Below are positions 3,155-40,634 of a DNA stretch of 43,150 bases, in pieces. Source of the stretch: Phoronis australis (taxonomy: Eukaryota; Animalia; Phoronida); the NCBI GenBank assembly GCA_002633005.1, contig NMRA01000255.1:59457-102606 (forward strand), written 5' to 3'. The notes beneath the pieces are model-generated. The model had not been told where the DNA came from. It did not search any database and saw only the letters and a program-made list of their open reading frames with translations. The translations under genes were made by a program, and so were the position numbers. How positions within the stretch are numbered: position 1 is the stretch's first letter; each line of letters begins with the position of its first letter.

Positions 3155-3473
3155 AGATAACTCGTTCCAGGACTGAGTGAATTGTCTGTGTGTGGACAGT
3201 ACTCTAATGGGTCAAAGTGGACACAATTGGTCAAAATGGAAAAAATCGATAAATTCACATAATGGGTAAAACAACGTACCGTCGGATTTTCAGATCCAGA
3301 GCCCCCTTTTTAGGGTCACTACTCAAGTTCATATCGTGTTTGAAGGTGTATGCTTGTCCTAGTCAAAGTCACTGCTTCTAAATCTTTTGTTGGGTCAGTA
3401 ATTCGTACTCATTTGAAAGAATTTAACCCAAGATCAGTGCTTCATACATTTCACATTCAAGCTTGCTTTGCAG

Positions 3474-3715
3474 ACGATGTATCAAGTGAATCGCGCCGTT
3501 TGTTTGCCGCCGAGTTGGAAAGAAGTCGTCGAGCACGCATGACTTGTGATAATAACGAATCGTGCAGGCAGTGGTGCATAAACCAAGGACGTGCTAGTGG
3601 GCGCTGCTATAAAGCCAAGTGTTACTGCAGAGGGTGTGTAATCAAATTCTATACCCGGTATTTTAACTGCAGTTCATTTCTTCTTCTTTCTTCTTTACCA
3701 GCCGCTTCCCCGTGA
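3474..3715 (+). CDS. Defensin-like precursor, coding exon 2: propeptide + CS-alpha-beta mature peptide (3' end uncertain; possible donor at 3634)
   Basis: The acceptor ctttgcag|AC gives D-DVSSESRRLFAAELERSRRAR-MTCDNNESCRQWCINQGRASGRCYKAKCYCRG. Cys spacing C-x5-C-x3-C-x9-C-x4-C-x-C with a GxC motif is the CS-alpha-beta signature. RRAR is a furin-type site. The unspliced stop is at 3713-3715, but a GG|GTGTGT donor at 3634 may be used. Confidence 0.85.
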
Positions 3716-8533: not shown

Positions 8534-10736
8534 ATTATTGAATCGGAGCATAGCTGGTCAATCAAAGCTTGGGCGTAGATGTCTTTCTTACTTAGCGAGT
8601 AAATCTACATACGCCATATATTGAAAATATGTCACATATTCTTTATATAAATTTGTTGTGGCTTAGAATGAAAGTCGGTGACTGAAGACGGTTGATACGC
8701 GGTAAAATGTAACAATTTCGTAAAATGCAACAACTCTTACATTTTACGTCATTATTACATTTTACGTTGCTAGGCCTCTCCTAAAATTTATCAAGTAGCT
8801 ACATTTTATGTAATTGTTACAATTTACGTCGAATGCATATGCGAGAAATGTGCCATTGTTACATTTTACGAAATCTACGTCATATTTCATGAGTTTGTAT
8901 GGTATTTGTCACACGGAGGAAAGCGGTTCATACACTTCTAACACCTTCTTTCTCGGATTGTTTGAATGAAATTCTATCAAATGTGAAAGCTCGAATTTAT
9001 AGATGTGTCCGTATGTGTTTTCCATTGTTTTTTAGCCTGGGTAGTTTCTTGGTATAGTAAAAAATGTACCCCGTACAGTTTCAATTCCAGACGAAAGGAG
9101 TTCCCAGGATCAGGTAACACGTTTTTATTGTTAAAGCGTTCTTGTAATAATTTTGTGGGCGGCCACAGGTCACACGCAATTGTGTGTCCCGCATTACAGT
9201 AAACACACTTCCCTTGTTACCTCGTAAGCACAACAGAAACAATGACACCGTATTTTGGCTAATGCATGTATTTATCACATTTCTTTAGGAACAAACGACA
9301 ATAACATTTTTTCACGGAGAATTCAGTTAAGGGAACCAATTAGATAGACAAAACCGTTTTAATACACGATGGCTTGATTTGCTTCAGTCAGTGTTTTATT
9401 GCCTTAGAGTCATGGCCAATGCTCCACACAAAAGTTTCTGACGCCGACGGGTTGTGTTTACCAACTTAGTTACGAATGACAATTTCTTTAAGTCATTATG
9501 GTGGAACGTGTTTTGAACAGCTAAAATCTGAATGAAATATAATTGTTCCTATGATGTCAAACCTGTCTGAAATAATGGTGGTAACAGTTGATCAAACCGT
9601 GACGTGTACACGTAAAATGGGAGGCCTAGCTGGGGAAATAAAAAATGTTTTACCACTCTGAATAGACACGGTCATTTGGCTCATACCGGGTCTTCGTCGA
9701 TAGTTTAAAGGAGCAACAGTTCAAAAAAGCTGACTGTGGGCGTTTCGGACTTCAAAAACATGCACTTTCTCTTTCTATTATCTTTTAAGATAAAAAAATC
9801 AATTAAAATTGCTAATTGGTCAATGTTCGTTAGTCCAAACTAGGAACCAGGTTCCTATGTCCGAAGCACATATCAATAAAGACAGAGACTGGGCCTTCTA
9901 GTATTAATGGATGTGTAGTAACGTGTCTTGTGAGGCGCCATTGTTGTGTTGCATCTCGCTGTCAACAACACGGGTGGCTGGTGGCAGATAAGGATCTCTG
10001 ATATGTTAAACGTTTTGCTACATCGCATAAAAAGCGCATATTAAACATCTCTGACTTTGACGTTGGCCGTTTTTGTTCCTTACAACCCATTTTCAGTGAA
10101 ACCTAGTTCAAATCATTCAGAAAAATCACTGAATACTGACCGCAGCCATAGCCGACTAGTCGCTATATTTCGAAAAATGTCTACATTCAAAATTCAATTG
10201 ATGTCCGCTTAACTTCAAAGCCGTTTTTCTCGACTCGTGATTTCAGGGTAGTGACAAGATTCTCGGGCCTATTTTTCCGCAAGATGTGGGTCGATTTTTA
10301 CGAAATGTGCAAATTTGAAATCCTCTAGATGTAAGTCGCAAGTAAAGAATACAGTTTGAATTCAGTTCTTCGTTGCAAACTACAGAAGGACAAAATAGTT
10401 TATTTACAAACAAAACCGTGCCTGCCGATAGATCAGAAATAATCCATTTTTGAAATGGCGCACGTCTAAACAAGATTTTAATTCTCAACACCCTTGTTTC
10501 TAAAAAGTAGGCCTACTCTACATCCACAGCTGTCATGACGCTTCTCATAATGTCGTTAAAGTTGAACATAGGAACCTCTTAAAGCACTCGCTGTCCATTA
10601 TGGGGAGCCCGGTGAAAACTTTGAACCATAAATAGAGGATTTTAAAATCTTTGAGGACCATGATGTATTAGCACTTTGCTAAAACATTTATTATACATAC
10701 TGCACTGCATCATTGTTAAATAAATTTAAAAATATC

Positions 10737-11161: not shown

Positions 11162-12829
11162 CCCAGTCAGATACCACTTGGTCTTGATTTTGGTCATGTT
11201 CTTTGAAATATGACGTTGGCTTCGTAAAATGTAACAATGGTACATTTCTCGCATGTGTATTCGACATAAAATGTAAAAACTACGTAAAATGTTACATTTT
11301 AGGAGAGGCTTAGCAACGTGAAATGTAACGATAACGTAAGATGTAACAGTTGTTACATTTTACGAAATTGTTACATTTTCCGTCGTATCAGACGGTCTCA
11401 GTATGCGTCATTTCCAGCTGCATGGTTACAGAAGCCGCTGCCGGGTCACCAGTTCGGACGCAAAGACAAAAGGATTAGAAATAACTTAACTTTATTTCCG
11501 CATCTGATCATGAATGCATGCTTTTTAAAATCTGAAAATTAATCGAAGGAGCAAAGTGGTGGACGCAGTGGCGCAGTTTGGGGGAATGCACGACAGGGTT
11601 GCTGCATTGGCGAGGAGGGTGGTAAAGTGACGGGCGGACAGCAAGAGAATAACAAGACTAGCATCTAACGTTGGTAAAGTACTTCATTATACACAGGATG
11701 TAGAATAACATGTAATTCACAAATATCACGGTATTTTGCGAAGCCTTCATGGCGATCACGTTAAAACGGTCCATTGAATTTTGATTGGTTAAACCAAGCT
11801 CAGCGGACTTTTTAAGCATTGCTCAGCGCATCATTTACTGGTAGTTAATCATTGTTTTGCCAACCATGGCCTTTCAAACCTTACTTACCGTTGCTCACGT
11901 GCCTGAGGCATTGGCTGAAATTCATGCGGACAGGCGCAGGCCAAAAAATGAGCTTGGGTACAGAGTAGAACCAACGATATTTTTCTAGATTAACCGAAAC
12001 CGTGTTTACAACTTTGAACCCCTTCCTCGTCGTGTTATCGACATTTCAACAATTTTTGAAAACCTTTAAAAGTTGAATTAATTTCACAAAATGTGCTATC
12101 GAATGTTTTAAAATTCGTGGCTATACGTCATTCCGATCGTCAGCTGCTTGTATGGAACTCACTTTTTGCAAATTATTTTTTTGCTTTTTACCATCTCTAT
12201 GGAAAAGTGCGTCTTGCAGGAAAATTTGACTAATAATTTTTGCGCCAAGGAAGGCTGTTGATATTGACCAACGGCTACCGTTGTGTCAGTTTGAAGCAGA
12301 TTTCTTATCATTTTCTCTCAAGTCAATAAATCAATACCTACTGAAGTACCTTCCTTCCACCATCTTGTTTACTATTACGTCTAATATACGTCAATGGTTT
12401 ACATCCGTTAAAGAACACTAATATTTTGCTGACGGCACTTCCAAAATCAATTCATTGTCTACCAAACAAAAGCTCTTTATAAGCATTTGTTTACGGATAA
12501 AGGAAATCGACTTGAACAATTGCCTAGTCTATTTGTATCTATCACCTGCAGAATTCCAACACTTGTTTCTAACCTTTGCTTATATTTTTCCGGGCTCAGA
12601 ACAATGGATGATCTCGGATCAGTTTTGAACACAAGCTATTAAGTAATTAAGATATTTACGAATTTAATGCAATTGTCAACCTTCATTGAGTCCAGTCGAG
12701 TTTCATCATTTGTCTTGTTACCTGTCCATTGTCTATACCTAAATTGCATATTTCTGAACTTAATGAATAAAAACTCCATCCATGCATTAAAAAGTGAGCG
12801 CGATTTCGTAGCTCAATGATATTGTTCAC

Positions 12830-15085
12830 TGTCTTTCTACGAGGTAACGTGTCTCAAGTGTTCTAAATACTCTTAAAAGCCACAGTAACATTCAAACACA
12901 CTCTCAGATTTCAGACCACCGTCCTATCCGTTTTTCTTCAAAATCAATAAAGGAACTCTATCCTAAACGCCCTACGCTCGTTTCAAAAACTTACTTTCTC
13001 AATGACTAGCGAAACTGCAACATTATGGAAAAGCTAGACCGCAGCTTAGATTGTGTCCCCAATCACAATTACACAATACTCAGGGATGCTTTGACTAATC
13101 TCACGAAAAATACTTTGGTCCTTAGATGCAATAACCAAAAATACGCGCGGATTACCCCTGGCAACTTAATGTCCATTCATTACAAAGACAAACACTACAA
13201 AGAAACCAAGACAACCCCTCGCAACCCGTAATCCCATGCTACCTTCATCAACAATCTCAAGGTATACAACAAGATTCTTAAAAACTAATTGATTCTGCCG
13301 AGCAATCTTACTACCATGATAAATTTGTAAAAAGTGAAGTCTGAGATGATTAAAACATGGAGTTCAATAAAGGCAGTTATGAAAAACGGTGTACGAACAA
13401 AAATGGTACCCCAGAGTACACTTTACATTCAGATAACACTACAACCATTGACCTACCGATATGGCAAGTCTATTCAACACCTATCCTACCCAAGTCGGCC
13501 ACCCCTTTCCGAATCAATAACTATGACAAACAACAAGAATTTCAAAGACCATTTTCCCACGACAAACAAACTTAAATTCTCTTTTAAACAGATAAAAATA
13601 AACATGCACAACATATTACAAGGGACATGGGTAAAAATAAATATCAATGGTAACGATAACTTATCCAAAATTATCAAAATAAGCAACTTTATAATTGAAC
13701 CTCTCACGGCCATCATCAACCAATGCTTGCATACCGGTATATTTCCAAATGATCTTAAGATTGCAACAACATGGTTAGCACCCAGAGCACCCTGGCAATT
13801 ATAGACCTATTTCCATTCTCCCCACAGTTTAAAGAATTATCGAAAAAAATTATCTATACACAACCTTAAAATTTCCTAAACGATATTTTTATAAAGATCA
13901 ATATGGGCTTCAGGAAATTTCACTCTACAGAGCTTGCTTCCCTTGGACTTTAAGACCACATTTGTTCCCATCTTGATAACGACAGGAGACCCCTGGTCAA
14001 CTTTCTCGCTCTCTAAAACTTTCGACACCATAGACCAACAACATAAATCACCACGGTATTACCAGAATTGAATATACACTTTTTAATAGTTATCTGTCAA
14101 ATCGCACCCAATATGTTTCCCTGGAGGTCCCACTTCCAGTTGGTTACCAATAGCTACCGGAGTTCCCCAAGGTTATATTCTTGGGCCACTTCTCTTCTTA
14201 ATTTACATCCAGGATCTCCCGTATTCTTCTCCCATGGACACTTGTCTCGTCACACCTTACAAACTCACTGAATCTTCCCAACACATTTTACAACAATCAG
14301 CCACTATCAACAAAAACCTGGAATCTGTTTTAGTCTGGTTTTTCGTGAACAAGCTTTCAATTAATACATCAAAAATCAAATTAATGGTCTTCCACAACAC
14401 CCAAAAAAAAGCTGAAAAAATATTATTCCCACCAGCAAAATAATCAGTCACGTCTACGATTTCCTTTTCTTTTAGTATTACCGTTGACAAAAAACTCTCG
14501 CGGTGCCCTCGCATAAACCCCATTTCAAACAAACTTAACAAACTCGGTGGACTCATGTATATAATTTGAAATCTTATATTCCTCTACCGACTTTCAGGTT
14601 CATGTATAATTCACTTGTCCTCCCATATTTAAACTACGACCCTACAACTTGGGAGTTTGGTATCACTAAGAAACCCCAGACAGTCTAGAAGGGAACCGTT
14701 CGGAATATATCACATTCCAAGTACTATGCTCACACTCTACCCATATGTAAGGAACTTCACGTCCCACTACTTCAATATATCTTGAAATATAATCCCAGCT
14801 GCAAATTTTTACTAAACATTCCTCAATAATCAGCTATTTAAGTATGTTTACACAAAAGACTTCTTCAGAAGACCGATCCAATATAAACCAACCACAAACA
14901 TGAAACTTCTTCTTGGTACCCGAATCAATATTCTACTGGTATTCCGACAATGGAAGGCAAAATTTTAATTCCCCCATCCAACAAATAGTCATCAAAAGCA
15001 TGTATCAGATTTGAAATTACTCGCCTAATTAATTACAACAAAATACCAGTCTCTGCTAACATTTAGCAAATTAGTTGCAACTACG
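12830..15085 (+). mobile_element. Non-LTR retrotransposon (CR1/L2/Crack-group LINE) ORF2 relic with many frameshifts
   Basis: Motifs in order across frames: ISDHRPI (APE endonuclease end, 12908), RITPGNLMSIHYKDKHYK, KTWSSIK, EPLTAIINQCLHTGIFPNDLKIA, NYRPISILP, QYG.RKFHSTELA, SKTFDTID, GVPQGYILGPLLFLIYIQDLP, WFFVNKLSINTSKIKLMVF, SKYYAHTLPICKEL. Confidence 0.9.
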
Positions 15086-15262: not shown

Positions 15263-16126
15263 AAAACAGCAAAAAGCGAATCCATGTTATAAAATCCAGA
15301 AACAGAGGCGTGACATTGAAACACTTTCCATCTCAGTCATGAGGTAGAGCTTGATATTGTATTTGTAATATAAACAAGACAGAATGTATATTTGTGCAAC
15401 TGTGTCAAGGTTTTCGTTCACATTAAATTGAGCAAATTACTCCGCAAACTTCACTCGTTCACTCAAAAAGATAAAAATTATACCACATCGTCTCCAGCAG
15501 AGTGTCGATGAAAGTACGACTTGGCTGTTTATTGAGCCTACTTGACCTTCTTACGGAAAGCGTAATCTTTTGGTTGAGCGTGCCTGGACACAGATACATG
15601 TATGTGCGACAGCCTTTATTCTGGTCCCCAACCCAGACCCTTTTAGCGTTTGAGTCAGGTGCAGATCTCGACTATATGGTTCTTAGTTGGTCAATCGACG
15701 ATGACGTCAACCAGTTTATTTATATCAGCTGAACATAAAAACGCAACCTTAACTGGGGTAACTTGGATAATCCAGACAATAAAGAACCATACAAAAGTTG
15801 GGATTACCATGGTCACACAGGTCACTCAAGCTCCTAACTCTGTTACGGTACAAGCATGCACTCTGTTGTCGTATTAAGTACAGATTATCCGAAAAAGGAA
15901 CAGTATGTAATTACAAACATTGGACATCGTATCGATATGAAAATTCAAAAATAAGAGAAACGAGAAAAAATACCGAGCATGAGAGAAGTGAGAAACAATC
16001 TGAAATTTTGAAATAACCATACAAACCAGACCATAGTTTCATATAGTAAAAAATCTGACCAAATGGTCTTGTTTTCGAGAGCTACACCTAACTCAAATGA
16101 CGATTGAGTCTATATTCAATAAAAGC

Positions 16127-16132
16127 TTTATT
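16127..16132 (-). terminator. Candidate AATAAA polyadenylation signal of the olfactomedin gene
   Basis: tttatt on + (AATAAA on -), ~215 nt after the stop. Confidence 0.45.
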
Positions 16133-16347
16133 ATCGCTCCTGTGGGCTGGAAATGAACATTTTATCTGCTGTGCGTAATTGACTTAGCTCATCCATTTGT
16201 ACATCAAACACCTCCCACTATCCGTAAAAAGGTCAATTGGTCGAGTATTATGTTGAAACAGAAACAAGTCGTTTCATTGTCAAATACAACAATTTGAAAT
16301 TGATACTTAAGAGCGAGAATTTTTGAGAATGTCAGGCCAATTGAACA

Positions 16348-17144
16348 TTAAAAATTAACTGCAACTTTGTACTGTTTGTTGCTATCGTATGCGTACAGCA
16401 CTTTGTCGCGATGGTCATAATGCGTATGTGCGTTGTAGCCAGCATTTTGGAACGCCATTGTGTTGGACGTGTCAGTGCTTCTGGTGGTGAAGTCCAAGAT
16501 ATGAGATATGGTTGTTGTCGAGGCGCTGTAACTGGATGTGAGATACATGCGCGCGCATATCATGAACGCCTGTCCTTTTCCACTTTTGGATACGTCGGTG
16601 TGCCATGTGTCAAGAATGGAATATGTCAGTGGGTCGATCTTGCTGATTGACAACAAACATCCGCTGTCGGGCCAAATGATGTACAGTCCCGTACTATCGG
16701 CTTCTACATCCACCGCGGAACCTCCACCCCATTGGTAACTGCACGAAGCGGCTGTGCGCGTTGTTGTCCCATCCGAAACGCTTGACAGAGAAATCGTATG
16801 AACTTTTGTTCGCGCATTAAGATCGTACACCATGACTGATTTCACGTCCGTGCACATTTGACAGTACAGCTTTCCTCCATAAACGAGCCAGCTCGCGCCA
16901 CAACAGTTGTCAGAAAGGGTAATCGTGATGCTCCTTGTGTTGCTGATGTAATCGGCTTGGTTGGGGTATACCTTTAGCGTATTTCTTGAACTGTAACCAT
17001 CCATAAAGTAAAACATCGACTCGCCGGCAGGTGTCAGAGCATCTTTGCTGATCATTCCTTGGCTGCAACATCCGCGGCTGGTGGTCAGATCAACCCTGGG
17101 GTACGTGAAACTGGTGGCATGACTACATGTCTGATTTGGAGGCG
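16348..17144 (-). CDS. PAN-OLF-OLF secreted protein, exon 3 (terminal): olfactomedin domain 2
   Basis: Acceptor ttcttattcatttcag| (phase 1) reads APPNQTCSH...GCCSQG into the ORF 16348-17055. A gapless alignment to exon 2 gives 150/235 identical residues (hand count). TAA stop at 16350-16348. Confidence 0.9.
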
Positions 17145-17274
17145 CTGAAATGAATAAGAAAATAGGTTTTTGTTACTATCTAAATCTAGGTTATGGGCCT
17201 CAATAGAAAAAGTTTCTGATCACCAGTACGATATTCCGCATTTGGACGCTATTCAAATCACTTTTTGATAAAAA

Positions 17275-17316
17275 TGTCCTCTAGTAATTTGAACGTGTCC
17301 TCTAGTAATTTGAACG
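17275..17316. repeat. Perfect 21-bp tandem duplication
   Basis: tgtcctctagtaatttgaacg x2. Confidence 0.9.
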
Positions 17317-20300
17317 TAACCCGATCACAATCCCTGTCAAGCCATTGTTTGTGTGAAGGAGTGAAAGGGGAAGCATACCACACAGTATTTTGCCTCCCAA
17401 AACAATGCGATCACCTATACCTTTTGAGTAGATTTTCACTGTTCTATTTTAATTTGAAACAGGCCTTCGTTTCGCAAAGAGAGTGCGTTCGGTACTTTTA
17501 CACCTCAGCCATGATGAAAACAAACTACAGTATTTTATGTTGACCAAGCACACCGTAACTCCGAATGAATGTTGAACGTTGAAAATAAAATGGACAGTGG
17601 ATAAATGAAACCTGAAAACGGGTACGCCTTACCGAAGCCTACTCGTCTTTACATGAGCTGCTCGTGCGTGATATTGGTAAGGAACTAAAGCCATGGACTC
17701 ATACAAAATGATGAATTCAGTTTTCTGGCAACATAAAAATGCACCGTTTGAGAATATAAGGCTATGGGCTTATACACTATTCGAATATGAGACCTGATTA
17801 TTTTTTCAGATGTAAGAGTATTTAGTTCTTTTTATTTCGTGAATGAATATGTTTTTTCACACAAGGACATAACTTGTGGGGCGTGCCGGGGTCTGAATCC
17901 CCACAATCGATAGTTATCGACTTATTTGGGCGAATAAAAAGTTTTAAGCGTTTTTCCAAATTAAGTTTCCAAATTTGAAAATTTTGCAAAACTGCGGACT
18001 TTTGTTCGTTTGTATTAAATTTGCACTACCCATAATTGTGTTTTTCTCAGTAATATGGTCGAATTTTGTTGTCAGTTTTTCCTCGCAATGGGATTTTCAC
18101 GTGTTGCTATGCGTAAAAATAAACAAAGATGAGCTACTCACAAGTTCATGATCATAACCGCCGAAAAATTTTAGATTTGCTCTGAGACCGTTGCACAATG
18201 ACAATATACAGTTAAGCAGGGTAAGAGCTTAGGGGATAGAATTAATGAGGCCGATGAAATATCTACCCCAGTTTCGTTCCCAAGATATTAAAAGGTCGAC
18301 AGCAACAAAGAATACATGGCAAACTCAAGTCTTTTTGTTTGACTGGTTTCAAGGCCGTAGGAAGCCCACAGTTACTGAAATATAAACGTGTTTGTGGAGT
18401 GGTAGTGTTTTTGCTCGTAAAAAGATTCGAGCCTCCATCAAGTGAATTCCATCTGGACAGATAATCAATCTACTTAGTAGAAATTACCTGCCCCATATTA
18501 TTGTCAAAAATGGCTTGACAGGGATGTGTATGATTGACATGCTCGAGTACTAGTTGATTATACCGCAGCAGTAACTTTGACCATTTTAGTTTTTGACAAG
18601 ATATTTACTGTCCTTTATTATGTTCAAAATGGCTTAAGATTTTAATGGGTTCTTGACAGAGATATGAGATATATGGCTGGGATGCACCCGCACCAGTCAA
18701 TTTTCAGCTTTGAAATCTAAGCGGCCAAATTAGTCTAATTATGTTGCATGAAACGTTTTCACCCTTAGAAACATCTATACTGAGTTGCCGTATAAGAAAC
18801 GACTCAACATTTCCAAGGTTTCATTTGTATATGTGCCAGAGAAAGCGACTAAAACTTCTGATTCATAAATAATTTTTTTCAGTTGCAAACAGAGCTTGCA
18901 ACAAGTCCATGCTTCATTTAAGTCTGAATATGCTGATTGCATACACTACAAGATCTTTGCTCAGTCAGTCTCGCCCAATTGCCCTCCGCCTTTTTGATTG
19001 TTATAACTGTTACTAAGTTGTGAATTCTAAACCAACGAGTTCGACGTCCATAAAATTACGCTCGTAACATACACTCGTGAAGTACGCCCGCAATTTTCGG
19101 GCGTACTGAGCGTGCATAAAGAACTATCGGAAGTTACGATCGTAAAACACTGACGTAAAAACTGCATTGCCTACCTAGTCGGTAGTCTGGTCAAAGCTAG
19201 TAACTTCAAGAAGTCTACCCATCCAATAATAGTCCCACAAAATGCATTGTTTTGCCGTAAAACTGACAAAGCCCTTTTAAGCGATCTAGAAACTATAATT
19301 GTTTTTCAAAAATTATCAACAGAATTAATTCTTTATTTTTACAATGAACAAGTTTGGAGAAAATTACTAACTTCACCCCATTTCTTCAAAAAATCCCAAA
19401 AAGGACGGTCCCAAAACTTCCCAACAAAAGTCTGAAAATTTGTCTCGAAACAGTCTGCAAATAGCAAGAGAATTTTCGATTTTTTTGTTCAGCACAAAAA
19501 ACACATAATGTCCGTTGAATCTGACCCTCATGTGATGCCATATCACATAATGCTTAAGCTGGCCTTTGACCGAAGCATCTATCTCACCGCACGTGGCATT
19601 TAGGGTAACACAGCAGTTGGTCACGTGATATTTAAGAAATTCTAATTGTTAAACGTGCACTAATTAGCTGATTCTTTCGATTTGTGATATTTACCGTTCC
19701 TTGACTAGCAAAATGAAGTAGGAAAACGTAAAATAGACTGAAATAAGTAGATTAAAGTAACCGATTATCGTTACTATGTTAAACAGGGTTAAGTATCTCT
19801 TTAAAATGTTGGAACAAGTGTTGCAATTCCCTTAGTTAGGCTTTGCCATCCAATCATAGCTTGGACTATCGATAGGACAGACGGATGGGAAAGAAAGACA
19901 CAAAGTGGGAAAGACGGAAGCAATGGGAAGGATGAAAGCATTGGTGAGAACGAAGCTGTGTAAGAAGTGCCATTAAAACGTGCAGAGAACAGCAGCTTTC
20001 GAAGAAGTCATCGTTCGCAAAATCCCAGCAACTGCATGGAAAGACGGTCGAATCACGTGTTTTCAGGAATTGATGAATATTTTACACAAAATTTAATTAG
20101 TTTTTTTTTTCGTGCGGGCGTACAATAGACACGCGACACGACAATGGCATTCAGTAACGCGAACTGCGATCACAAAATAAAAAGAGAACCCGTTCTTCCC
20201 TATTTTTCTTCCATCCGTTCCATCTGAAATTCCGCCCATCGTGTTTTCTGCCCGTCCTAAGTCCTTCCAATCACAAGGCCCATCCTTCCCAACGACACTT

Positions 20301-20536
20301 CGAGTTTTTAAAAATAGTTGATCAATAAAGTCTCAGTAATGATACAATAAATTAACCGTGAATTGAAAATACTTGAATTGTCACCGAATGACTGTTATAT
20401 AATTTTGCTCATTGGTATCACTGAACTGTTTTACAAAAAGGCATTCGTTTCCAGCCGGACAAATTCATAAGCGTGGACGTAAGCACATGGCTGTACGTAC
20501 GGCACACAGCTTACTTAGATTTCATGCAGTACTCAC

Positions 20537-21334
20537 CATTGTAAGCAATACTGACTTTGTATTGCTTATTGTTGTCGTAAGCAAGAAGCACGTCATCTTT
20601 GTAGTCGTAATGCGTATGTGAGTTGTAGCCAGCGTTTTGAAACGCCATTGAGCCAGACGAGTCGATGTTTCTGGTCTTGAAGTCGAAGATATAAGCCACA
20701 TTGGTTATTGAAGCACTGTAACTCGTAGTAAGATACATTCTGCCACAAAGCATGAATGCTTGGCCCTTCCCACTTTTGGATACATCGGTGTGCCACGTTT
20801 CTGTGATTGCATAGGTTCGTGAGTCAATCTTACTTATGGAGATTTTGCAGCCAGAATCAGCCCAAATTAGGTAGAGTCCTGTAGTATCGGCAGCTACATC
20901 TATATACGAATACCCACCCCAAGAATAAGAGCATGTAGCGCCATCACGAGACGAAGTACCATCGGACACACTGATTAGCGAAATGGTAGCAATTTGAGAC
21001 TTAGAGTCCATATCATACACCATAACATTTTTGCCATTTGAGCACATTTGACAGTAGAGCTTTCCACCAAAGACAAGCCAACTGGACCCGCAGCACGTTT
21101 GAGGCAGCGTTGTCGAGGCACCGTTTACGTCATTAACATAGTCGATTTCGTTCGGGTATTCCTTGATGGAATTTATAGAACTATATCCGCTCATGATATA
21201 GAACTTAGACACTCCACTGGACGTCTTGGCGTCTTTACTGATCATGCCCTGGGTGTTTGCACCTCGCCCAGTAGTGATGTCCACGCGCGGGTACACGAAA
21301 GCAACCGGGTGGTAACACACGGGTGGAGGTGTTT
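20537..21334 (-). CDS. PAN-OLF-OLF secreted protein, exon 2: olfactomedin domain 1
   Basis: Acceptor ttttaatttcag| and donor G|GTGAGT; 798 nt, phase 1-1. OLF motifs LVFGGKLY, YSWGGYSYIDVAADTTGLYLIW, ISKID..T....TW.T, AFMLCGRMY, Y...D.VL.AYD. Confidence 0.9.
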
Positions 21335-22401
21335 CTGAAATTAAAAACACTTTCCATTAAATAATCCATTTTGCCCAATGCGCCCCGGAGATTCGGAAAA
21401 CAGTTATAACATTTAAACTCCGTTTAACTTGGCGTAAACAATTCAAAACCAGTTGTAACAGTGTTGTGACTATAAGGTGGTTTTAGGGTGGGTTGACGAG
21501 CGTCAAACGGTTATTGAATTTGAAAAAAAGTAGTGATACTGACCATTAGTGACAAGAACCAGGGAGTTGTGTTACAACAATTCAATAGTCGAGATTGCAT
21601 AAAGCTGGATCTGTTAATGAATTGTAATACCCAATTTAGATAATGTGAAACCCCGCGAGAATCAGTACGGAGACCAGCAGTCACGCATATGTTAATGGAT
21701 GGGAAATCAGTGTTGACGCTGAAGTGGACCGGGTTGGTTAAAACGACATTATCGGCGACGATATTATATATTTGAGGTCAGCCCCACGACGGATTAAAAC
21801 ACATGACCTCAGCAGTCACAGTCCGACAGATTGCTAAATGCCAATGTGGCTAGTATCCGAGTATTTCAATTGTCTTTAATTGGTCATCAGACGCGCTTCC
21901 ATTCAATCCCAAGCCAACCTCGGCAATCAGTGATTTTTCATAAAATAACAAAACGGATTTGTTGTAGCTCTGGTCAAAGCCATCTGTCCTACCCCTCAAT
22001 GTTCCCAAAATGCGTTTTCGGCCAAAAAACCGAAGCGATTACGTCCCTTTAGAGCATATACACTGGACAAAACAAAGGTGTTATACTGTAAATTAGTTTT
22101 GTCGATGCCGTGCAACTACTAAAAGTATTCCGGCGGTAGATAACGCCTGGAGCACGTGTGTAGAAACTTTGCAAGAAAAATTCATAGCGATATTTTTCGA
22201 CTGTACATGAACATATCAAACATCTTTGTCGAAATTTTCGACAACGTACGATTCTTTGGAAAATGTCTTGGGAAAGCTTCGATTCGTGTTTGGCGAGCTC
22301 TGCATTTTTGAATTTTCATGCAACCCACCCCAGCTGAGGAAAATTTGAATAAATATTCAACTTGAATGGTACAGTTACAAAATGTACTGGCACTGCCATA
22401 C

Positions 22402-22708
22402 CTATCGGCTGAGTAACTTCCCAAAAGTCCCATCCTTCCGCTTCCTGTGACGTGGATTCAAACTGCTCACAAATCTCACACGTATTATTTCCAGCAAAGT
22501 AGTTCACCCCTCCACAGGACGACAAGTAAGTCAGACGAGTATCCAGACACTTTGTGAAACACGCCTTCAAATGTGGAACGATAACGGAATTTTGAATAGC
22601 GCCAACAGCTCGGAAATTGGTCTTCTTTTCCAAATACGCGTGCCGTTCATTATTACAGTTGACTTCACTTGTGGCAAGCAAAAATACTGCAAGAACAATA
22701 ACAAACAT
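22402..22708 (-). CDS. PAN-OLF-OLF secreted protein, exon 1: signal peptide + PAN/Apple domain
   Basis: First in-frame ATG is at 22708 (the track start at 22744 is TTG). Signal peptide MFVIVLAVFLLATSEVNC. PAN-type pattern CFTKC...SCGGVNY...NTCEIC...GWDFW. Phase-1 donor G|GTATGG at 22401. Confidence 0.85.
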
Positions 22709-24571: not shown

Positions 24572-25008
24572 TGCCCGGATGCACGAAACAGTCCCAAATG
24601 GGGGCTCAACTAAGTTCCCTAAATACTGCGTATTTGTGGACTTGTGAAAACTCTGATTGTCCTTTCTTATGCTGTTCGAGTATCAATATACTTTAAGCAA
24701 GTACATGTATTAGGTGTTGGCTTTGACACAAATAGAGACTGAACTCTACGTTGAATTCTCGATATCATTAAAAATACGCAGCGATGTTTACATGCAACGC
24801 TCCCAATTTAAGAACTCCCTAATTATTTTGATTGAATTAAGGGCTCAGTTTTTAGTTATATCTTTAGAAAATGTCATTAGTCGCAGAGGAGCTCATGATC
24901 AAGATAAAATGATAGAAAAAAGTAACACCTTGAGCAAAGAACGAACCAAATAAGCAAAATATTTAGGGAACTCAGTTCCTTATTTGGGGCTGTTTCATGC
25001 AACCGGCC
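24572..25008. mobile_element. Harbinger-like MITE with ~60-bp TIRs
   Basis: gcccggatgcacgaaacagtcccaaat..aactaagttccctaaata matches the reverse complement of tatttagggaactcagttccttatttggggctgtttcatgcaaccggcc. Confidence 0.75.
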
Positions 25009-28000
25009 AGGGAAAAGCTAAGAACTGACATTTCGTGATATGCTGCTTTAAGTCAGGTTCAGCGAATAAAATGAGCCAGGGCGGGATTAAGCCGAGTTGT
25101 TCATTAAGCCTTGTATCAAGCCACGGTTCTCTCCATGTTCAGATTTTTTTTTTGTCTAAATAAGAAACAACTGGAGACCAATTCTATAATGGTAAAACTT
25201 CTAAATCAAGAGGCTGACATTTCACGGTCGGCCCATAAAGTGATTCGCCAGGACAAGCAAACTGAGTTTGGTCACAAGACAGTACTAACACATAGTTTGT
25301 TCCAAAGTCATTCTGAATTAGGAAATGGTTGTGGTAGGTTAGTTTTGTGACGGGGTAAGTATAGTCTAAAAGACGGAAGGCCGGGTCTGTGCCTTCAGTG
25401 ACGTGACCTTTTTCGCAAGCCATTGTAAACGGGATTGCATGTATATGTTGCTTAGTAGCCAAACAATCTTATGAGACGTATGTTGCAATTCAACATAACA
25501 GATGGCTGAATACTTTCATGGGTTTAGTAAAAGTGTTTGATCAACATGCAGCAACATTCCGTCCGTGCTAATTAAAACTATTGATCTGGAAAATCGGAAA
25601 TGTGGATGTTTGTATTGTTGCCTGATCCTGTTGTGAAGTCACTGATGTACATGTACAAGAAGTACTTCATCACACTTACGTGATGATCTAGGGATGTAAT
25701 ACGAAGAACTGGCTTTTAATCAACCAATCCACTAGGTTATCCACTAGGAGGCCAGCCATAAATGAAAGAAGTCAAACAACATGTCGTCAACTCTGCTGCA
25801 CTTCGTGAATGCGCAGACTGAAGTAGTCCCGGCGTTTAAATCCATAGAATTGTAAAATATGATATCGATTGTAACATAAAATCAATATACAAGTAATTTT
25901 TTGAGTCTGTCTATATTAAAGACATCCAGACAATGTGGCTAAAATGAAAAATGGACTGGGAAATGCTGAGCCTCCTCAAGTGGAGGCGAAGGCAAAGACT
26001 CCGGCCAAAGACCGACGCCGGATTGTCCCTTATTGGCGGTGGTAATGGCAAGCAAACTGTTATCAGGTGGAGACATAAAATCGTGAAATTCCTTCATAAT
26101 TGGAATTTAATTTCCAACTTTGCACCGGATCCGGCGACTTAGCTTGAGCAGCGAGCGACGGCATAGTTCTTAGAATGTGACTGCTATAGAAGGAATACTT
26201 GATATATGGGTAAATGATATAATTAAATTGTAATGAAATCTAAGATATAATGAAAATTTGTTAAGATGCGTTAGTACACTGGAAGCCCGACAGAGAGCGT
26301 GACTCTGCGGAGCTAACGCTTAATTTATTAGCTTTAACTCGTGAGACCAACACCTTAAAAAGACGCACTGTGTCACGCTCCCTACACTAGAATAGTTAAG
26401 CATCGCACACAATTAGCTAATAAACTACGGTCCACTACATTCCTCGCCACCTTTAAGCCAGTTTACGTTTTCAAATTATAAATCGCGGGCTTTTATTCTT
26501 AGACAGCGGTGCATAAGGTTTTTCAAGTTGATGTTTTGTCCAGTACTCAATTTAGCAACTGACATTTTTTTCGCGGCAACGTTTGGAGGCTCCTTCGCTG
26601 TTGTGGCAGGGCAACTCAAGTGAGGAGCCCACAGTTTTGGGTTCGAAAGTTTTGTTTGTTTGTTGAAAAATCAACGTCCGCAAGAGGAAATTGCAATCGG
26701 CAAGTTTAGTAACTATGCCGCAGCTTGTGCAATGGAATGTTTTTGCAAGGACTTCATCTGTGTCAGACTACCCACGTATGACCTGCGTGCAACACGGCGT
26801 CCAAAAATCAATAAACGACAAACTAACACGGAAAGTAATATGTGGTGCACGTGGTATTAAAGGGTAATGAGTGCAACTAATACTTAGTTCGTGTTTGAGT
26901 CTGCCTCAAATCCGAACAAAACACTATTTTTTGACCATTGGCATAATTTTTATGTTACATTTTCTTCAAACTTATACTACTTAGAAAAGGTGTCATGTTT
27001 CCGCTGTCCCGGATGTAATGGCGGTTTCTAGGCTGAACCCGATTGTGTTAAGCATTTGTGAACAACTGTGTAATATATATCTACGTCTCATTTAACTATT
27101 TCTTAAATTCGCCAAAGCGGGACATATGTCTGTAGGATAATAACTTTTGTACTTCTAAATTGCCCAGTATCAATCAATTGCGTATATAAGCTTGTTCTAA
27201 TCTTGAAGAGACCTTTGTCAGCCAAATAAATTTCTGTTGTAGTTTAGGCACTATTCTATATAATTCTAGTTCTGTGAACAACTCAATAAATTACGGCGAG
27301 AAGAATGATTTTCTGAGACTAACCTCGTACAAAGCTTCCATTGGTAGTATTTAAATCACACTAAGGAAAATTCGGAATTGTTGGATGCATAAGAGGAGCT
27401 CAAATTACTTTTCAGATAATGGATACAATTTTTGTACTTTTTGGTCGAATCCAAGTTTTCCCGAAACTAGAAATCGACGTCTCATGAATTAAAGGCCATT
27501 GTTAATGGAAAACCGTCGACTTTGTTACAGTGTCCCCCACTTAGTAGCTATTTGCTGTATTTGAAATGTGGCTGAATAATTCGTGGGCGTTCTTCAAATT
27601 GTAAAATGCCGTTATGTCTGTAATCCAACGACAGATCGAGTCCATTAGCGCACTTGAGTTGGACTCGGTAAATGCCAGTAGGCGGGACTCAGCAGTCGAC
27701 CTTCACCATGAGCTAAATCGAATTGTTGCATACTCGGCTGCGCTCGTTACAGAGAAGCTTATAGTTCCAAAAAGACTATCCCATCTAGAAACAATTCCAA
27801 AACCCGTTTTTCGGCAGTAAAACCGATGTCTTTTTAAATGCATAGAACTATTTAAATTTTTCTACCAGCAGTCAAGAAGATATAAGGAAACTCGACAGTC
27901 ATTTATATTTTGGGAAAATGTTCCCGGTTATTCATTAAATATTATTATAAAACAAATGCAAATAGCGATATTTCCATTAACGCAATTTCGTGTCATAACT

Positions 28001-34703: not shown

Positions 34704-35393
34704 ATAGGTCTGCTTTCGGAGTCACAGTTAAGAATTTTCTGCAATTTGCAGGTTTCCAAAAATGGACATAATCGGAGATTTGCGAAAACAAAAACAAGTA
34801 TTTGTGACGAGAAACTGGACGATTTAGTTTAATTCTACACTTTTTGGTTTGTCAACAAAATAAATTCAGCTAATAGTACCACTTATACACATAATGGTCC
34901 TCATTCCATGTCGGCGTCGCGGACACACTTTCCAATTATAAGTATATTCCAAAAGTACGCTTTGGATTATAGTACTCCATTTTATTAGAATGTAACCAGG
35001 GGGTCAGTATAATAAATTCCCGACAGCATTCCCAGAGGTCTGTCACCAGTACAAATAGCAATCTTCTTTCAAGTGCTTTTATATCCTTTTTAGCAAGTTT
35101 TTAGCAACAGTTTTTTAAAGCGCACGCCTGTGCTACCGGACAATTGAGACTGATTTGATAACTTTCTCTCGAGGTCTTTAAAGCAAATACAGAACGAAAT
35201 TCAAAAAATCACTGCAGAGGTGATTTTCAAAAAGGATTTTCTTTTCTCTAAATACATTTGTATACAGATTGTAACGTAATCCTTTGATCGAGGCGTACTT
35301 AATACATACAGCGTAATTACAACAACTTCTCTTTGTTATCTAGATGAATTTATGAGAATACGCTTTGCAGGTCACTTATTTTAAGGACCCACG

Positions 35394-36726
35394 ATGGATT
35401 CCTCTCTGCACCAAAGATTAAGACCACAGGATGAACTAAGTTCAAGCCATCCGGCAGCTACAGAAGACCGTATCGCAACATTTGGCACGAAAGAATCCGG
35501 GGACCATCGTATGCCAAGATATCTTTCACCAACCAGTGCTGCCAAAGTGAAAACAAAACCTAAATACAACACTAAATCACCTAAAACATTCAAATTTGGA
35601 AAACCGGAGGTAGAAGAACCTAAACAGTTTTCCAACGGATCTCCCGTGGCTAAAGGAAAAGCGAAAATATCGACTGAACTGAGTGTTCCTGGCTATATGC
35701 AACTGACAACAGCAGCCAAGGATAAAATGCGACTTGAGAGCGAAGACGCAAAAATGGTTCCAAACTTACAACCTGGCACAGGGGATGAACTGTACTCGAT
35801 TAAACACCATCGAGCGGCAAAGCAAGAATCTGCAGAGCCCGTCTATTGCGAGCCAAACTCTCGTTACTTATCACCTACGAGCGCTGCCCAAAGAAAAATC
35901 CGAAACAAGATTAGCGTAGCTGAGGAGACTTCGCCAAGAATGAAGTTTGGTAAAAACGAGGCTGAAAAAATACCTTTTCTTAATTTGACTGACGTCCCAT
36001 CCCCACCACCTTCAAAACACCAAAAGAAACGAGGGGCAAGTTATGATGCCAATATTCCGAGGTATTTGTCAATGACAAGTGCGAGCCAGGTAAAAGCGAG
36101 GGTCAAAGTGGGAGACAAGACAAAATCTCCAAGAATGTCGTTTAATTTGAAAAGCAAGTCGCAGGAGAGAATACCGTCCAAGTCTCCACTAACAACAAAC
36201 TCTGCGCCCAAGCAAGATCATACGTCTGACTGTATGTCCGTTGTTGATGATTTGCTTAAAACAAGAACAATCAAGACCAGCAATGTTATTCATGCTAAAG
36301 AACCCTGTTACCGTCGAGTAGGTGTTGTGTCATCGTCTCCTCCAAAAGTCAAACTCAGTGGAACAAACGATTCAAGCATTCCACGCTATCTTGCCCTGAC
36401 CAGTGCAGCCAAAGTCAAGACAAGGCGTAAGACTGAGGTCCAACCTGGCCCGAAAATGCGGTTTGGAAAGACTGAATTGTCCATTTCACCAGCTCGCCTG
36501 TCGCCGCAGCGAATCATGGAAAGCACTGCAGTAGACGACGAAAAAACAACTTCGTGGTGCAATTTGAACGAATCGCGTGACGCATGCGGTAACAGAGATG
36601 AGCCAAGAGTTGTTAAAAAAACATTGAGCCCAAGGCATACCTCAGACCTGGCCTTGATCATTCGTGACGACTGTGAGAGATCAAAGAATGAAAAATTTAA
36701 AAATCGACAAACAAATTCTACTTCCG
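35394..36726 (+). CDS. Basic repeat protein (putative microtubule-binding, tail-anchored), coding exon 1
   Basis: Long ORF with five PRYL..TSAAK.K-type repeats. Upstream acceptor ctttgcag| at 35370 (5'UTR intron). Phase-1 donor G|GTATGT at 36727. Confidence 0.85.
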
Positions 36727-36919
36727 GTATGTACCTCTTTTTGAATATTGTTTATTTTTATTGTATTCTGGTGTAAAACACACACAGACACACATTTTGT
36801 CATTTCCTGTGGCTTTTTGAGGACAAATTTAAAGATTTAAAAAATTTGAACGCGTTGAATTAGATTTCGTAATCTTACACTGTGTTTCATTGATAAGTTA
36901 TGCGCTTATTTCTCCATAG

Positions 36920-39144: not shown

Positions 39145-39705
39145 ATGACATGTCGACGACGATGACAGCAATTACGGTAATGGTGATGACGATGATGATG
39201 ACAACTACGAAGATTATAATGATGATGAGAATGGTGGTGTTGTCGAAGGAGATGACAAATGTGAAGATTATGATGACGATGACGATGATGGTGATGATGA
39301 TGATGATGACGAAGATGGTGCTGGTGTCGATAGAGATGATGGCGATAATGATAAGATAAGAAATTTGAAAATTATGATGATGGTGATGATGAGAATGGTG
39401 GTAGTGTCGCTGGAGATGATGATAATTTTGAAGATTATGAGGATGATGATGAGAATTATCGTAGTATCGCTGGAGACGATGAGGATCATTTTGAAGATGA
39501 TGATGATGATGACGATGATGATGAAAATGACCGTGATGCTGATGGTGTTGATGATGATGACAACTGTAAAGATTATGATGATGATGCTGATGATAATGGT
39601 ACTGATGATGACGATGATGGCGACGTCGGTGGCAATGATGATAACTGTCATGATAGTAGTGATTGTGTTGACGGAGGTGATGTTGGTGATGGCTATGATG
39701 AATGG
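39145..39705. repeat. Long degenerate (GAT)n microsatellite with higher-order ~57-60-bp units
   Basis: gatgatgac/gatggtgat array with recurring gaagattatgatgatg..gagaat..gt.gt.tcgctggaga blocks. Confidence 0.95.
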
Positions 39706-40634
39706 AGTGGTTGCTACGCAATGCAAGAGGATGGTCTTGCACAAAAACAGACCCGTTGATTTTTTTCTGTTCTATTATATCTTCTGTACCAATACACGTA
39801 TAGCTTTGATATGTACACTTTCGCAATCGTAACTTCAGAAACAGTTCATAACGTGAGGCAAATCCAGTCGCACCGCTGGGGTGACAAACTCCAAACCTCT
39901 TTGAGTTACGGCCACGCCGTCACTTAAGGCTACCGTAAAGCGTTGTTCATTAGAATTACACAATTGTTGCAAATGACCAACTCGAAGCACCTACAGGTGA
40001 CCCTAATACCGTCACCGTGACGTCAAATAATAATTATACTCCTCCGTATTTTGCGAATTTCAGTGTGCCAAATCCGCATTTAAGTAACACAACTCTATAT
40101 AAATTTACAAAATCATTAAATAGAAATGGAACGTGAAAGATCGTGAAATATATCTTCCTGAAGAAAGTACTATCTTACAACGTCTAGTCCAGAGAAATTC
40201 ATTATCCCCTGTGAGAAAATTTTCAGAGAAAAATCACGCTTTCTGAAATACGCGCGAAAGAAAAACTCTGTGGTTACCAGAGAGTTTCTTATCTCCATCC
40301 CACGCATGATAAACTTGTCATTTTCTTAAGTTGTGTTTCACGGGTACACATGTAGGTAAAAACTACAGAAAATATTACTGCTCAGAAATCGAATTAACAA
40401 AAAGTATATGGGCAACGACTAAACAGTGCACAAATGAATTATAAAAGAAAGTAGAATACCGTAACATTGTATAGTTACATACATGCATACCCCCACACAC
40501 ACTTAGACACGCAAATAAGACTGCGAGTTTTTTGAAAGTTACATAAACCCACCTGTTAGTGGGGTCGTAACTTATCTTTTAAAATTTCAGAACAGACTCT
40601 CTTCCACTTTTTTCCGCAAAATATTGTAACATGA

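What the first reader, a model, noticed from the sequence alone, without database searches (positions are those of the whole stretch)
16348..22708. Secreted PAN/Apple + tandem double-olfactomedin protein built from domain-sized exons
Seen: three exons (307+798+797 nt, all phase-1 junctions) give a ~633-aa protein consisting of signal peptide, PAN domain, OLF1 and OLF2. Known: characterised olfactomedin proteins (myocilin, noelins, OLFM4, gliomedin, latrophilins, sea-urchin amassin) carry a single OLF propeller and usually oligomerise through coiled-coil or collagen stalks. Inference: here bivalency is built in by a tandem OLF and the stalk is replaced by a PAN carbohydrate/protein-binding module. 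I do not recognise this architecture. It could be a lineage-specific mucus, matrix, clotting or immune cross-linker.
Basis: partly seen in the sequence, partly recalled or inferred. Interest (0 to 1): 0.8.

Follow-up and report, generated by a model that had tools for sequence, protein, structure and literature searches.

The report
Stalkless double-headed olfactomedin protein
This three-exon invertebrate gene encodes two olfactomedin propellers behind a likely PAN module, predicted to make one secreted chain that likely cross-links its targets without the stalk its studied relatives use; each half of this design already occurs in other unstudied gene models, so it is a new combination rather than a new kind.

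Summary
Three GT-AG, phase-1 exons (307, 798, 797 nt) give an open 633-aa frame. Exons 2 and 3 are each a full olfactomedin (OLF) domain (Pfam 128 bits; OLF1 model pLDDT 90, Z 35 to noelin). They are 63% identical and under purifying selection (dN/dS about 0.1). Exon 1 is a signal peptide plus a likely PAN domain (Pfam below cut-off; ESM Atlas 0.94; fold prediction failed). Expression is low. Depth arithmetic fits one read spliced from exon 2 to exon 3; exon 1 has no reads. No stalk fits between the domains. Both propellers carry an Asp-Gln-His calcium-site triad (only these 2 of 140 rows) and extra cysteines, several on the top face, which is better conserved between the copies (51/70) than the bottom (22/53). 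Best reading: a secreted, single-chain bivalent cross-linker made by exon duplication; ligand untested. Novelty is less than claimed: a soft-coral model has PAN plus one OLF, and lamprey and amphioxus models have two OLFs. PAN-OLF-OLF was in none of 149 relatives scanned, and my searches found no paper on it. Origin is unresolved between an invertebrate cysteine-pair group and a bacterial/anthozoan group.

The parts
22402..22708 (-). Exon 1 (coding): signal peptide plus PAN-like domain, residues 1-102; phase-1 donor
   Evidence: GT donor at 22401; no RNA read covers it; an AG ends 3 nt before the ATG, so a 5' UTR intron is possible
22655..22708 (-). Predicted signal peptide, about residues 1-18 (cleavage after residue 14 or 18 both plausible by eye)
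   Evidence: Kyte-Doolittle 11-residue mean 3.44 at the N-terminus; no later hydrophobic segment (max 19-residue mean 0.97), so no membrane anchor; no SignalP available
22415..22648 (-). Likely PAN/Apple domain (Cys 50, 54, 65, 77 in PAN-like spacing, plus Cys 80)
   Evidence: Pfam PAN_1 E 0.009, below cut-off; ESM Atlas PAN_1 0.94; single-sequence fold failed, pLDDT 37.5
21335..22401 (-). Intron 1, 1067 nt, GT-AG, phase 1
   Evidence: no hidden in-frame exon candidate passed my filter; junction not covered by reads
20537..21334 (-). Exon 2: complete OLF domain 1 (residues 103-368), symmetric phase 1-1; triad Asp248-Gln294-His344; 8 Cys
   Evidence: reads in runs X2 and X3 and a contig in X4
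20511..20536 (-). In-frame read-through into intron 2 (8 codons, then stop); would end a 376-aa PAN-OLF1 form if the donor is skipped
   Evidence: no read depth in bin 20259-20519; only one ATTAAA and no AATAAA in the next 1 kb
17145..20536 (-). Intron 2, 3392 nt, GTGAGT donor, phase 1
   Evidence: one spliced read inferred; only repeat reads at 19186-19217 inside it
16348..17144 (-). Exon 3 (coding part): complete OLF domain 2 (residues 369-633) and stop; triad Asp514-Gln560-His610; 10 Cys
   Evidence: reads in X2 and X3
15351..16347 (-). Likely 3' UTR of about 1 kb; AATAAA at 16132, 15720, 15620, 15533
   Evidence: X4 contig pieces 15351-15506, 15838-15988, 16027-16332 and X3 reads in bins 15300-15821; signals

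Best explanation
The three exons encode a likely PAN module followed by two olfactomedin propellers, predicted to form one secreted chain that likely works as a stalk-free, two-handed cross-linker, gripping two copies of the same still-untested target with its two similar top faces. Shown: exon structure, OLF identity and fold of OLF1, duplication of one symmetric phase-1 exon, purifying selection, low transcription from the likely correct strand. Inferred from one read: exons 2 and 3 are spliced together. Inferred from sequence only: exon 1 joins exon 2, and the protein is secreted. Inferred mechanism: studied OLF proteins gain avidity by oligomerising through a coiled coil or collagen stalk. 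Here the OLF exon was duplicated instead, so avidity is built into the chain over a short span (linker about 8 residues). The PAN module would anchor it to a glycan or protein partner, and an odd cysteine (5 in the mature PAN part if cleavage is after residue 18) could dimerise it to four heads. The central calcium site is probably lost or weak (Asp-Gln-His), and added disulfides likely stiffen the top-face loops instead. The most likely setting is extracellular matrix, mucus or body-fluid aggregation in a restricted tissue or stage.
For: Gene model. OLF domains; OLF1 model pLDDT 89.9, pTM 0.89, TM 0.88 to noelin 4xat, Z 35.0, rmsd 1.8 over 249 residues to 6qhj. Duplication: the two OLFs are each other's closest relatives (100/100); the best outside relatives are 31-40% identical. 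Selection: dN 0.29, pS 0.74. Splicing 2 to 3: in run X2 the only two wholly laid reads (99%+ alike) give 91 letters at the exon 2 end and 36 = 2 x 18 letters up to the exon 3 acceptor; no pair of unspliced reads fits, and 72 spliced placements do. All near-perfect reads have the first mate on +, as expected for a minus-strand mRNA in a usual stranded library. Top-face loops 51/70 identical against bottom-face 22/53 (Fisher p 0.0008); only 3 of 163 control pairs at 55-72% identity show as large an excess. PMC4463452 (Discussion read) says oligomeric state matters for many family members and proposes receptor clustering by conserved top faces. PMC2173732 (passages) shows amassin clots cells as disulfide-linked multimers. 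PMC6719662 (parts 1-2 of 4): the nearest tested triad, Asp-Asp-His, showed weak if any calcium binding.
Against: No read touches exon 1. The 2-to-3 junction is one inferred read and the tool's own joint table lists none (it needs 3). Exon skipping (367 aa) and read-through (376 aa) both give open single-OLF forms. PAN is below the Pfam cut-off, has no significant match to the soft-coral PAN (E 0.41) or to PDB sequences, and did not fold. Top faces are more conserved than bottom faces in the family generally (control means 0.68 against 0.57), the control pairs are not independent, and synonymous identity is higher in the 3' two-thirds of the exons (54/110 against 10/44 codons), so partial gene conversion could contribute. 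Face labels and disulfide pairs come from the DSSP string and family topology, not from coordinates. OLF2 was not modelled. No ligand or tissue data.
Confidence: 0.6

Rival explanations
1. The locus is mainly a head-switching gene: exon 1 is joined to either OLF exon (PAN-OLF2 by skipping, PAN-OLF1 by read-through), and the double form is a minor product. It would then be an ordinary PAN plus single OLF protein like the soft-coral model.
For: Both single forms are open frames (367 and 376 aa). PAN plus one OLF exists in Dendronephthya. Unreviewed notes on this genome describe several genes with alternative terminal exons, one with a fibrinogen or OLF head (not tested here).
Against: Exon 2 ends in a consensus GTGAGT donor in the right phase. 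The only informative read joins exon 2 to exon 3. There is no depth and no AATAAA after the read-through stop. The near-equal selection on both copies does not separate the two readings.
Confidence: 0.17
2. The two propellers bind different partners, or PAN is the main binding module, so the protein is an adaptor or decoy receptor and not a same-target cross-linker (closer to the lectin-plus-OLF head of latrophilin).
For: 37% of residues differ between the copies, OLF2 has two extra cysteines in a top-face loop, and the long top loop differs at 9 of 25 positions. A binding module followed directly by OLF without a stalk is the latrophilin arrangement (SUEL lectin plus OLF rows).
Against: The differences concentrate on the bottom face.
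Confidence: 0.15
3. Origin rival (independent of function): the OLF module came from bacteria as an intron-free gene, was captured as a phase-1 exon behind a PAN exon and then duplicated.
For: The highest identities are to prokaryotic-type OLFs (32-33%). Each OLF is one uninterrupted exon. With the two shared cysteine columns removed, the tree puts both copies with bacterial and anthozoan OLFs (95/99). The AU test does not reject that grouping with all columns kept (p 0.384).
Against: Both copies share a cysteine pair with 27 of 138 other rows, whose four named members are Owenia (2), Lottia and Nucella; none of the 11 prokaryotic-type rows has it. The site-mixture tree places them with that group (94/89), which the AU test does not reject even without those columns (p 0.382). 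The branch is long (1.1-1.5), so attraction to short-branched rows is expected.
Confidence: 0.17
4. Exon 1 does not belong to this transcript; the OLF exons are spliced behind another, unseen front exon, or the gene is longer.
For: No read on exon 1; an AG just before the ATG may be an acceptor.
Against: Exon 1 lies 1067 nt upstream on the same strand, has a signal peptide and a donor in the matching phase; none of 100 other ORFs in the window gave a Pfam match that suggests another front exon.
Confidence: 0.07

Closest known systems
Noelin/olfactomedin-1 and myocilin (PDB 6qhj, 4xat, 6qm3, 4wxq)
   Same: Five-bladed OLF propeller (Z 33-35, rmsd about 1.8-1.9); N-terminal and blade-D cysteines in the positions of the family's closing disulfide; secreted; multivalent display of propellers.
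   Different: They have one OLF per chain on a coiled coil and a calcium triad Asp-Glu/Asn-Asp (PMC4463452, PMC6719662). Here: two OLFs per chain, no stalk, Asp-Gln-His, 8-10 Cys per domain, 23-28% identity.
Sea-urchin amassin (PMC2173732, passages read)
   Same: Secreted invertebrate OLF protein that cross-links cells through multivalent, disulfide-linked display; the functional model for this protein.
   Different: Single OLF, coiled coil, large disulfide networks; triad Asp-Glu-Lys (PMC6719662). No sequence comparison to amassin was run.
Dendronephthya gigantea 'noelin-like' XP_028411438 (P0069), predicted model
   Same: Hydrophobic N-terminus, PAN_1 (E 3.5e-8) and OLF, no long stalk.
   Different: One OLF; its PAN is not detectably similar to exon 1 (E 0.41); its OLF lacks the cysteine pair and is about 29% identical. 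Common descent or convergence is unresolved.
Tandem-OLF gene models: Petromyzon marinus LOC142918167 and paralogs (P0076 cluster); Branchiostoma lanceolatum CAH1271698 (P0155)
   Same: Two OLF domains in one predicted chain; 10 of 13 lamprey cluster members carry two.
   Different: Lamprey repeats are 99% identical, group with latrophilin OLFs, and P0164 has a C-terminal membrane-like segment (by eye). Amphioxus repeats are 44% identical with a spacer of about 80 residues and may be a fused model. Neither has PAN; both are independent duplications and uncharacterised as far as I found.
Latrophilin (ADGRL) lectin-OLF head (PDB 5afb, 5cmn)
   Same: Small disulfide-rich binding module directly followed by OLF, no stalk.
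   Different: Part of a membrane receptor, SUEL lectin rather than PAN, single OLF.

Membership tests
OLF-domain proteins (Pfam PF02191) | Pfam OLF score above gathering cut-off over most of the profile | tested here: met
   128.4 and 128.7 bits against 23.9; profile 13-242 and 16-245 of 246
OLF-domain proteins (Pfam PF02191) | Five-bladed OLF propeller fold | tested here: met
   OLF1 model pLDDT 89.9; Z 35.0 to 6qhj; next non-OLF entry Z 13.7. OLF2 not modelled; it aligns to OLF1 without internal gaps
OLF-domain proteins (Pfam PF02191) | Cysteines for the N-to-C closing disulfide (present in noelin and myocilin, absent in gliomedin; PMC4488277) | tested here: met
   Cys109/Cys299 and Cys375/Cys565; the second column is Cys in 122 of 138 other rows. 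Bond geometry not inspected
Stalked olfactomedins (noelin, myocilin, OLFM4, amassin, gliomedin types) | Coiled-coil or collagen oligomerisation stalk before a single OLF | tested here: not met
   No Noelin-1 or Collagen match; linkers of about 12 and 8 residues leave no room; two OLFs
Stalked olfactomedins (noelin, myocilin, OLFM4, amassin, gliomedin types) | DExGLW motif, called invariant in PMC4206993 (passage read) | tested here: not met
   Both copies read D-[T/S]-T-G-L-Y
Calcium-binding OLF domains (myocilin, noelin) | Triad Asp380, Asn/Glu428, Asp478 (myocilin numbering, PMC6719662) | tested here: not met
   Asp-Gln-His in both copies, in 2 of 140 aligned rows; actual metal binding not testable here
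PAN/Apple domain (PF00024) | Pfam PAN_1 above cut-off | tested here: inconclusive
   16.3 bits against 21.4, E 0.009; ESM Atlas first hit PAN_1 0.94
PAN/Apple domain (PF00024) | PAN fold with C-x3-C helix and two core disulfides | tested here: inconclusive
   Cys spacing fits (the expected pairing is recalled knowledge); single-sequence model unusable, pLDDT 37.5
   Cys183/Cys197 in OLF1; shared with 27 of 138 other rows
   With the columns 94/89; without them it moves to the bacterial and anthozoan group at 95/99; AU tests reject neither
Amassin-like clotting cross-linker (works-like claim) | Aggregates cells or particles, disulfide-dependent multimers | not testable with these tools
   needs protein assays

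The most novel reading that the evidence does not exclude
A bacterial-type olfactomedin propeller was captured by an invertebrate as a ready-made single exon, placed behind a PAN exon and duplicated, and its calcium core was rebuilt with histidines and its binding face stapled with new disulfides. The result would be a stalk-free two-headed lectin-like cross-linker with a second, non-vertical origin of OLF in animals.
Probability: 0.15. Interest if true: 0.72.

Novelty: new variant of a known kind. Interest (0 to 1): 0.42.

Why it matters
How OLF domains act is still largely open, and avidity through stalks is the leading idea (PMC4463452). A natural single-chain, stalk-free double propeller with an altered calcium site would let avidity and calcium dependence be tested separately in one small soluble protein (about 68 kDa). 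It also shows that OLF behaves as a shuffled phase-1 exon in invertebrates and that two-OLF chains arose several times. The value is limited by one species, low expression, no ligand, and the presence of each half of the design in other predicted proteins.

Tried and rejected
No whole genome is held, so paralogs elsewhere in this genome could not be counted; within the window tblastn found no third OLF exon or second PAN exon. No RNA holder was listed by the index; the four runs came by species label. Word-index protein searches were nearly blank: OLF1 among longer proteins gave 1 hit of 1649 candidates, OLF2 gave 0 of 246, the PAN part gave 0 of 10; these are weak evidence of absence. The single-sequence fold of the PAN part failed, so no fold search was run on it. 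PDB sequence search with it gave only chance-level hits. Assembly-artefact duplication was rejected (64% nucleotide identity, synonymous sites near saturation). Pseudogene was rejected (open frames, dN/dS about 0.1, reads). Membrane anchoring was rejected. P0002 (grenadier fish) and P0008 (Holothuria) also show two OLFs, but I set them aside as likely model artefacts: near-copy repeat and two stalk-plus-OLF units, judged by eye. P0087 (Bulinus) has only overlapping partial matches. A quick FastTree placement among long branches was unsupported and not used. No complex prediction was run because no specific binding pair is claimed. Literature searches with no paper: olfactomedin + tandem + PAN domain, 'two olfactomedin domains', olfactomedin + 'PAN Apple', olfactomedin + mollusc + annelid + secreted + expanded. 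Searches returned listings with nothing on this architecture by title or abstract start. The library lacks most subscription papers (for example Zeng 2005 and Hillier 2007 were not seen) and no supplements were read, so a listing of this architecture in a table cannot be excluded.
Full report
Observation. The minus strand carries the three exons as described: 22708-22402, 21334-20537 and 17144-16348, of 307, 798 and 797 nt. Both introns are GT-AG, both junctions are phase 1, and the joined frame is 633 aa plus stop. Exon 2 and exon 3 each hold a whole olfactomedin domain (Pfam OLF 128 bits, cut-off 23.9). Exon 1 has a hydrophobic N-terminus and a weak PAN_1 match (E 0.009, below cut-off). The ESM Atlas ranks PAN_1 clusters first for it (0.94, 177 of 256 features). 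Its single-sequence fold failed (pLDDT 37.5) and it has no significant PDB sequence match, so PAN is likely, not proven. No later hydrophobic segment exists, so the product is predicted to be secreted and soluble.

The OLF domains are real, old duplicates. OLF1, folded with a 40-row alignment, gave pLDDT 89.9 and matches noelin and myocilin propellers at TM 0.88 and Z 33-35, with the first non-OLF entry at Z 13.7. OLF1 and OLF2 align without internal gaps at about 63% amino-acid and 64% nucleotide identity; pS is 0.74 and dN 0.29, so dN/dS is roughly 0.1 (dS is near saturation, so the ratio is rough). They are each other's nearest relatives in every tree. Exon 2 is a symmetric phase 1-1 exon, which is what duplication of a whole-domain exon requires. 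No third OLF exon lies in the window; the rest of the genome was not available.

Expression and splicing. The index listed no RNA holder; three raw RNA runs and one contig set of the same species label were laid, about 18-19% of each raw run. Depth is very low. X3 has 8 reads at 99%+ identity and X2 has 2, on exon 2, exon 3 and the region downstream of the stop; X1 has none there. All have the first mate on +, as expected for a minus-strand mRNA in a usual stranded library. Four of the 5 X4 contig pieces lie in exon 2 or within 1 kb downstream of the stop; the fifth is a 32-nt repeat in intron 2; X4 being RNA is only the tool's guess. The joint table is empty because it needs 3 reads. In X2, however, the two wholly laid reads give about 91 letters at the donor end of exon 2 (79 of them in 20537-20615), 36 letters in the 18-nt stretch up to the exon 3 acceptor, and 172 letters beyond. 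No pair of contiguous reads fits these depths, and 72 placements with a spliced read do; the 40 printed all have 89-92 nt in exon 2. This is one inferred read across 20537^17144. It argues against two separate genes but gives no isoform ratio. Exon 1 has no reads. Skipping exon 2 (367 aa) and reading through its donor (376 aa) both give open single-OLF forms.

What is unusual inside the propellers. The calcium triad (myocilin Asp380, Asn428, Asp478; PMC6719662, parts 1-2 of 4 read) is Asp-Gln-His in both copies, a combination found in only these 2 of 140 aligned rows, with a second His two residues before. In that paper the nearest tested triad, Asp-Asp-His, gave weak if any calcium binding, and invertebrate triads vary widely, so a changed site is not rare in itself. 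The domains carry 8 and 10 cysteines; within the aligned envelope they have 7 and 9, whereas 121 of 138 other rows have 3 or fewer. One extra pair is shared with 27 other rows. By the DSSP string and family topology most of the added cysteines fall in or beside top-face loops, the face that PMC4488277 (passages) calls a common interaction site. Top-face loops are 51/70 identical between the copies and bottom-face loops 22/53 (p 0.0008). Control pairs at similar identity also favour the top (0.68 against 0.57), but only 3 of 163 reach this excess. The controls are not independent, and higher synonymous identity in the 3' two-thirds leaves room for partial gene conversion.

Mechanism. Studied secreted OLF proteins present several propellers through stalks: olfactomedin-1 is a V-shaped disulfide-linked tetramer, proposed to cluster receptors through conserved top faces (PMC4463452, abstract and Discussion), and amassin clots sea-urchin coelomocytes as disulfide-linked multimers (PMC2173732, passages). 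Here no stalk fits (linkers of about 12 and 8 residues). The best reading is that exon duplication supplies the second head inside the chain, that both heads bind the same target, and that PAN anchors or dimerises the protein; the mature chain has an odd cysteine count (23) if cleaved after residue 18. Every functional step is inferred. I put this at 0.6, against mainly single-OLF isoforms (0.17), different ligands (0.15) and a wrong front exon (0.07).

Comparison with what is known. The exhaustive profile-free search found 366 relatives at E up to 0.001 and listed 150; the best are 31-40% identical, so no close family member is in the library. I scanned 149 of the 150 against Pfam (for eight rows with many families only the best five were shown). 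One has PAN plus OLF: Dendronephthya gigantea XP_028411438; its PAN is not detectably similar to exon 1. Four have two substantial OLFs: a lamprey family with 99% identical repeats (10 of 13 cluster members), a Branchiostoma model with 44% identical repeats, and two that I judge by eye to be likely model artefacts (P0002, P0008). None has PAN-OLF-OLF. Because the library keeps one protein per 50% cluster and only 150 of 366 hits were listed, absence elsewhere is not shown. Four paper searches on the architecture gave no paper.

Origin. The top identities are to prokaryotic-type OLFs. Only P0003 is named as bacterial; P0004 has 47-51% matches in three bacterial MAGs; I labelled the others from co-domains or metagenome source. 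With a site-mixture model and all columns, the pair groups with the cysteine-pair rows (94/89; 71 rows chosen from the 140), whose four named members are Owenia (2), Lottia and Nucella. With those two columns removed and a simpler model it groups with bacterial and anthozoan rows (95/99, bootstrap not settled; 47 rows); with the columns kept under the same simple model it does not. AU tests reject neither placement (p 0.384 and 0.382). The shared cysteine pair, the long branch, and unreviewed notes that this genome is likely molluscan (not tested) favour vertical descent; transfer from bacteria stays open at about 0.15-0.2.

Verdict. A real, expressed, three-exon gene with an OLF exon duplication; a new variant of a known kind. 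The combination and the remodelled propellers deserve a look, but both design elements recur in other predicted proteins and function is untested. Interest 0.42.

Noticed in passing
window 3344-3712 (+), cysteine core near 3538-3640: Defensin-like cysteine-stabilised peptide after a dibasic site; Pfam Gamma-thionin E 4.9e-5, 23.9 bits, just below cut-off. Exon structure not worked out.
   Followed up: partly
window 13331-14440 (+): Decayed LINE-type reverse transcriptase fragments (RVT_1 E 1.1e-5 for 14090-14440), in a stretch of strong negative GC skew.
   Followed up: no
window 35385-36776 (+): 463-aa Ser/Pro/Lys-rich open frame with internal repeats of a short motif and no Pfam match; probably a large exon of a neighbouring gene.
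   Followed up: no
window 39149-39832 (+): Very Asp-rich, GAT-repeat region with self-similar blocks; may be an acidic protein exon or a simple repeat.
   Followed up: no
window 8681-8889 and 11204-11402; 24572-25009; 42004-42143; 19186-19217: Inverted-repeat, MITE-like interspersed elements; they attract most of the RNA reads at 90-95% identity.
   Followed up: no
proteins P0057 (Montipora) and P0069 (Dendronephthya): Anthozoan OLF domains nest with prokaryotic-type OLFs at 100/100, apart from bilaterian OLFs; unrooted, so ancestry or transfer is not decided.
   Followed up: partly
proteins P0076, P0157-P0167 (Petromyzon marinus): A multi-locus lamprey family of latrophilin-like OLF-OLF models, at least one with a C-terminal membrane-like segment and no GPCR part.
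   Followed up: partly
proteins P0048, P0055, P0067, P0068: OLF fused to chitin-binding CBM14, TSP1 plus ZP, Kunitz/thyroglobulin/LDLa, and VWA domains: OLF is shuffled more freely than the textbook families suggest.
   Followed up: no
loci L001-L003: OLF genes in three bacterial MAG contigs at 47-51% identity to P0004, confirming prokaryotic OLF domains.
   Followed up: partly
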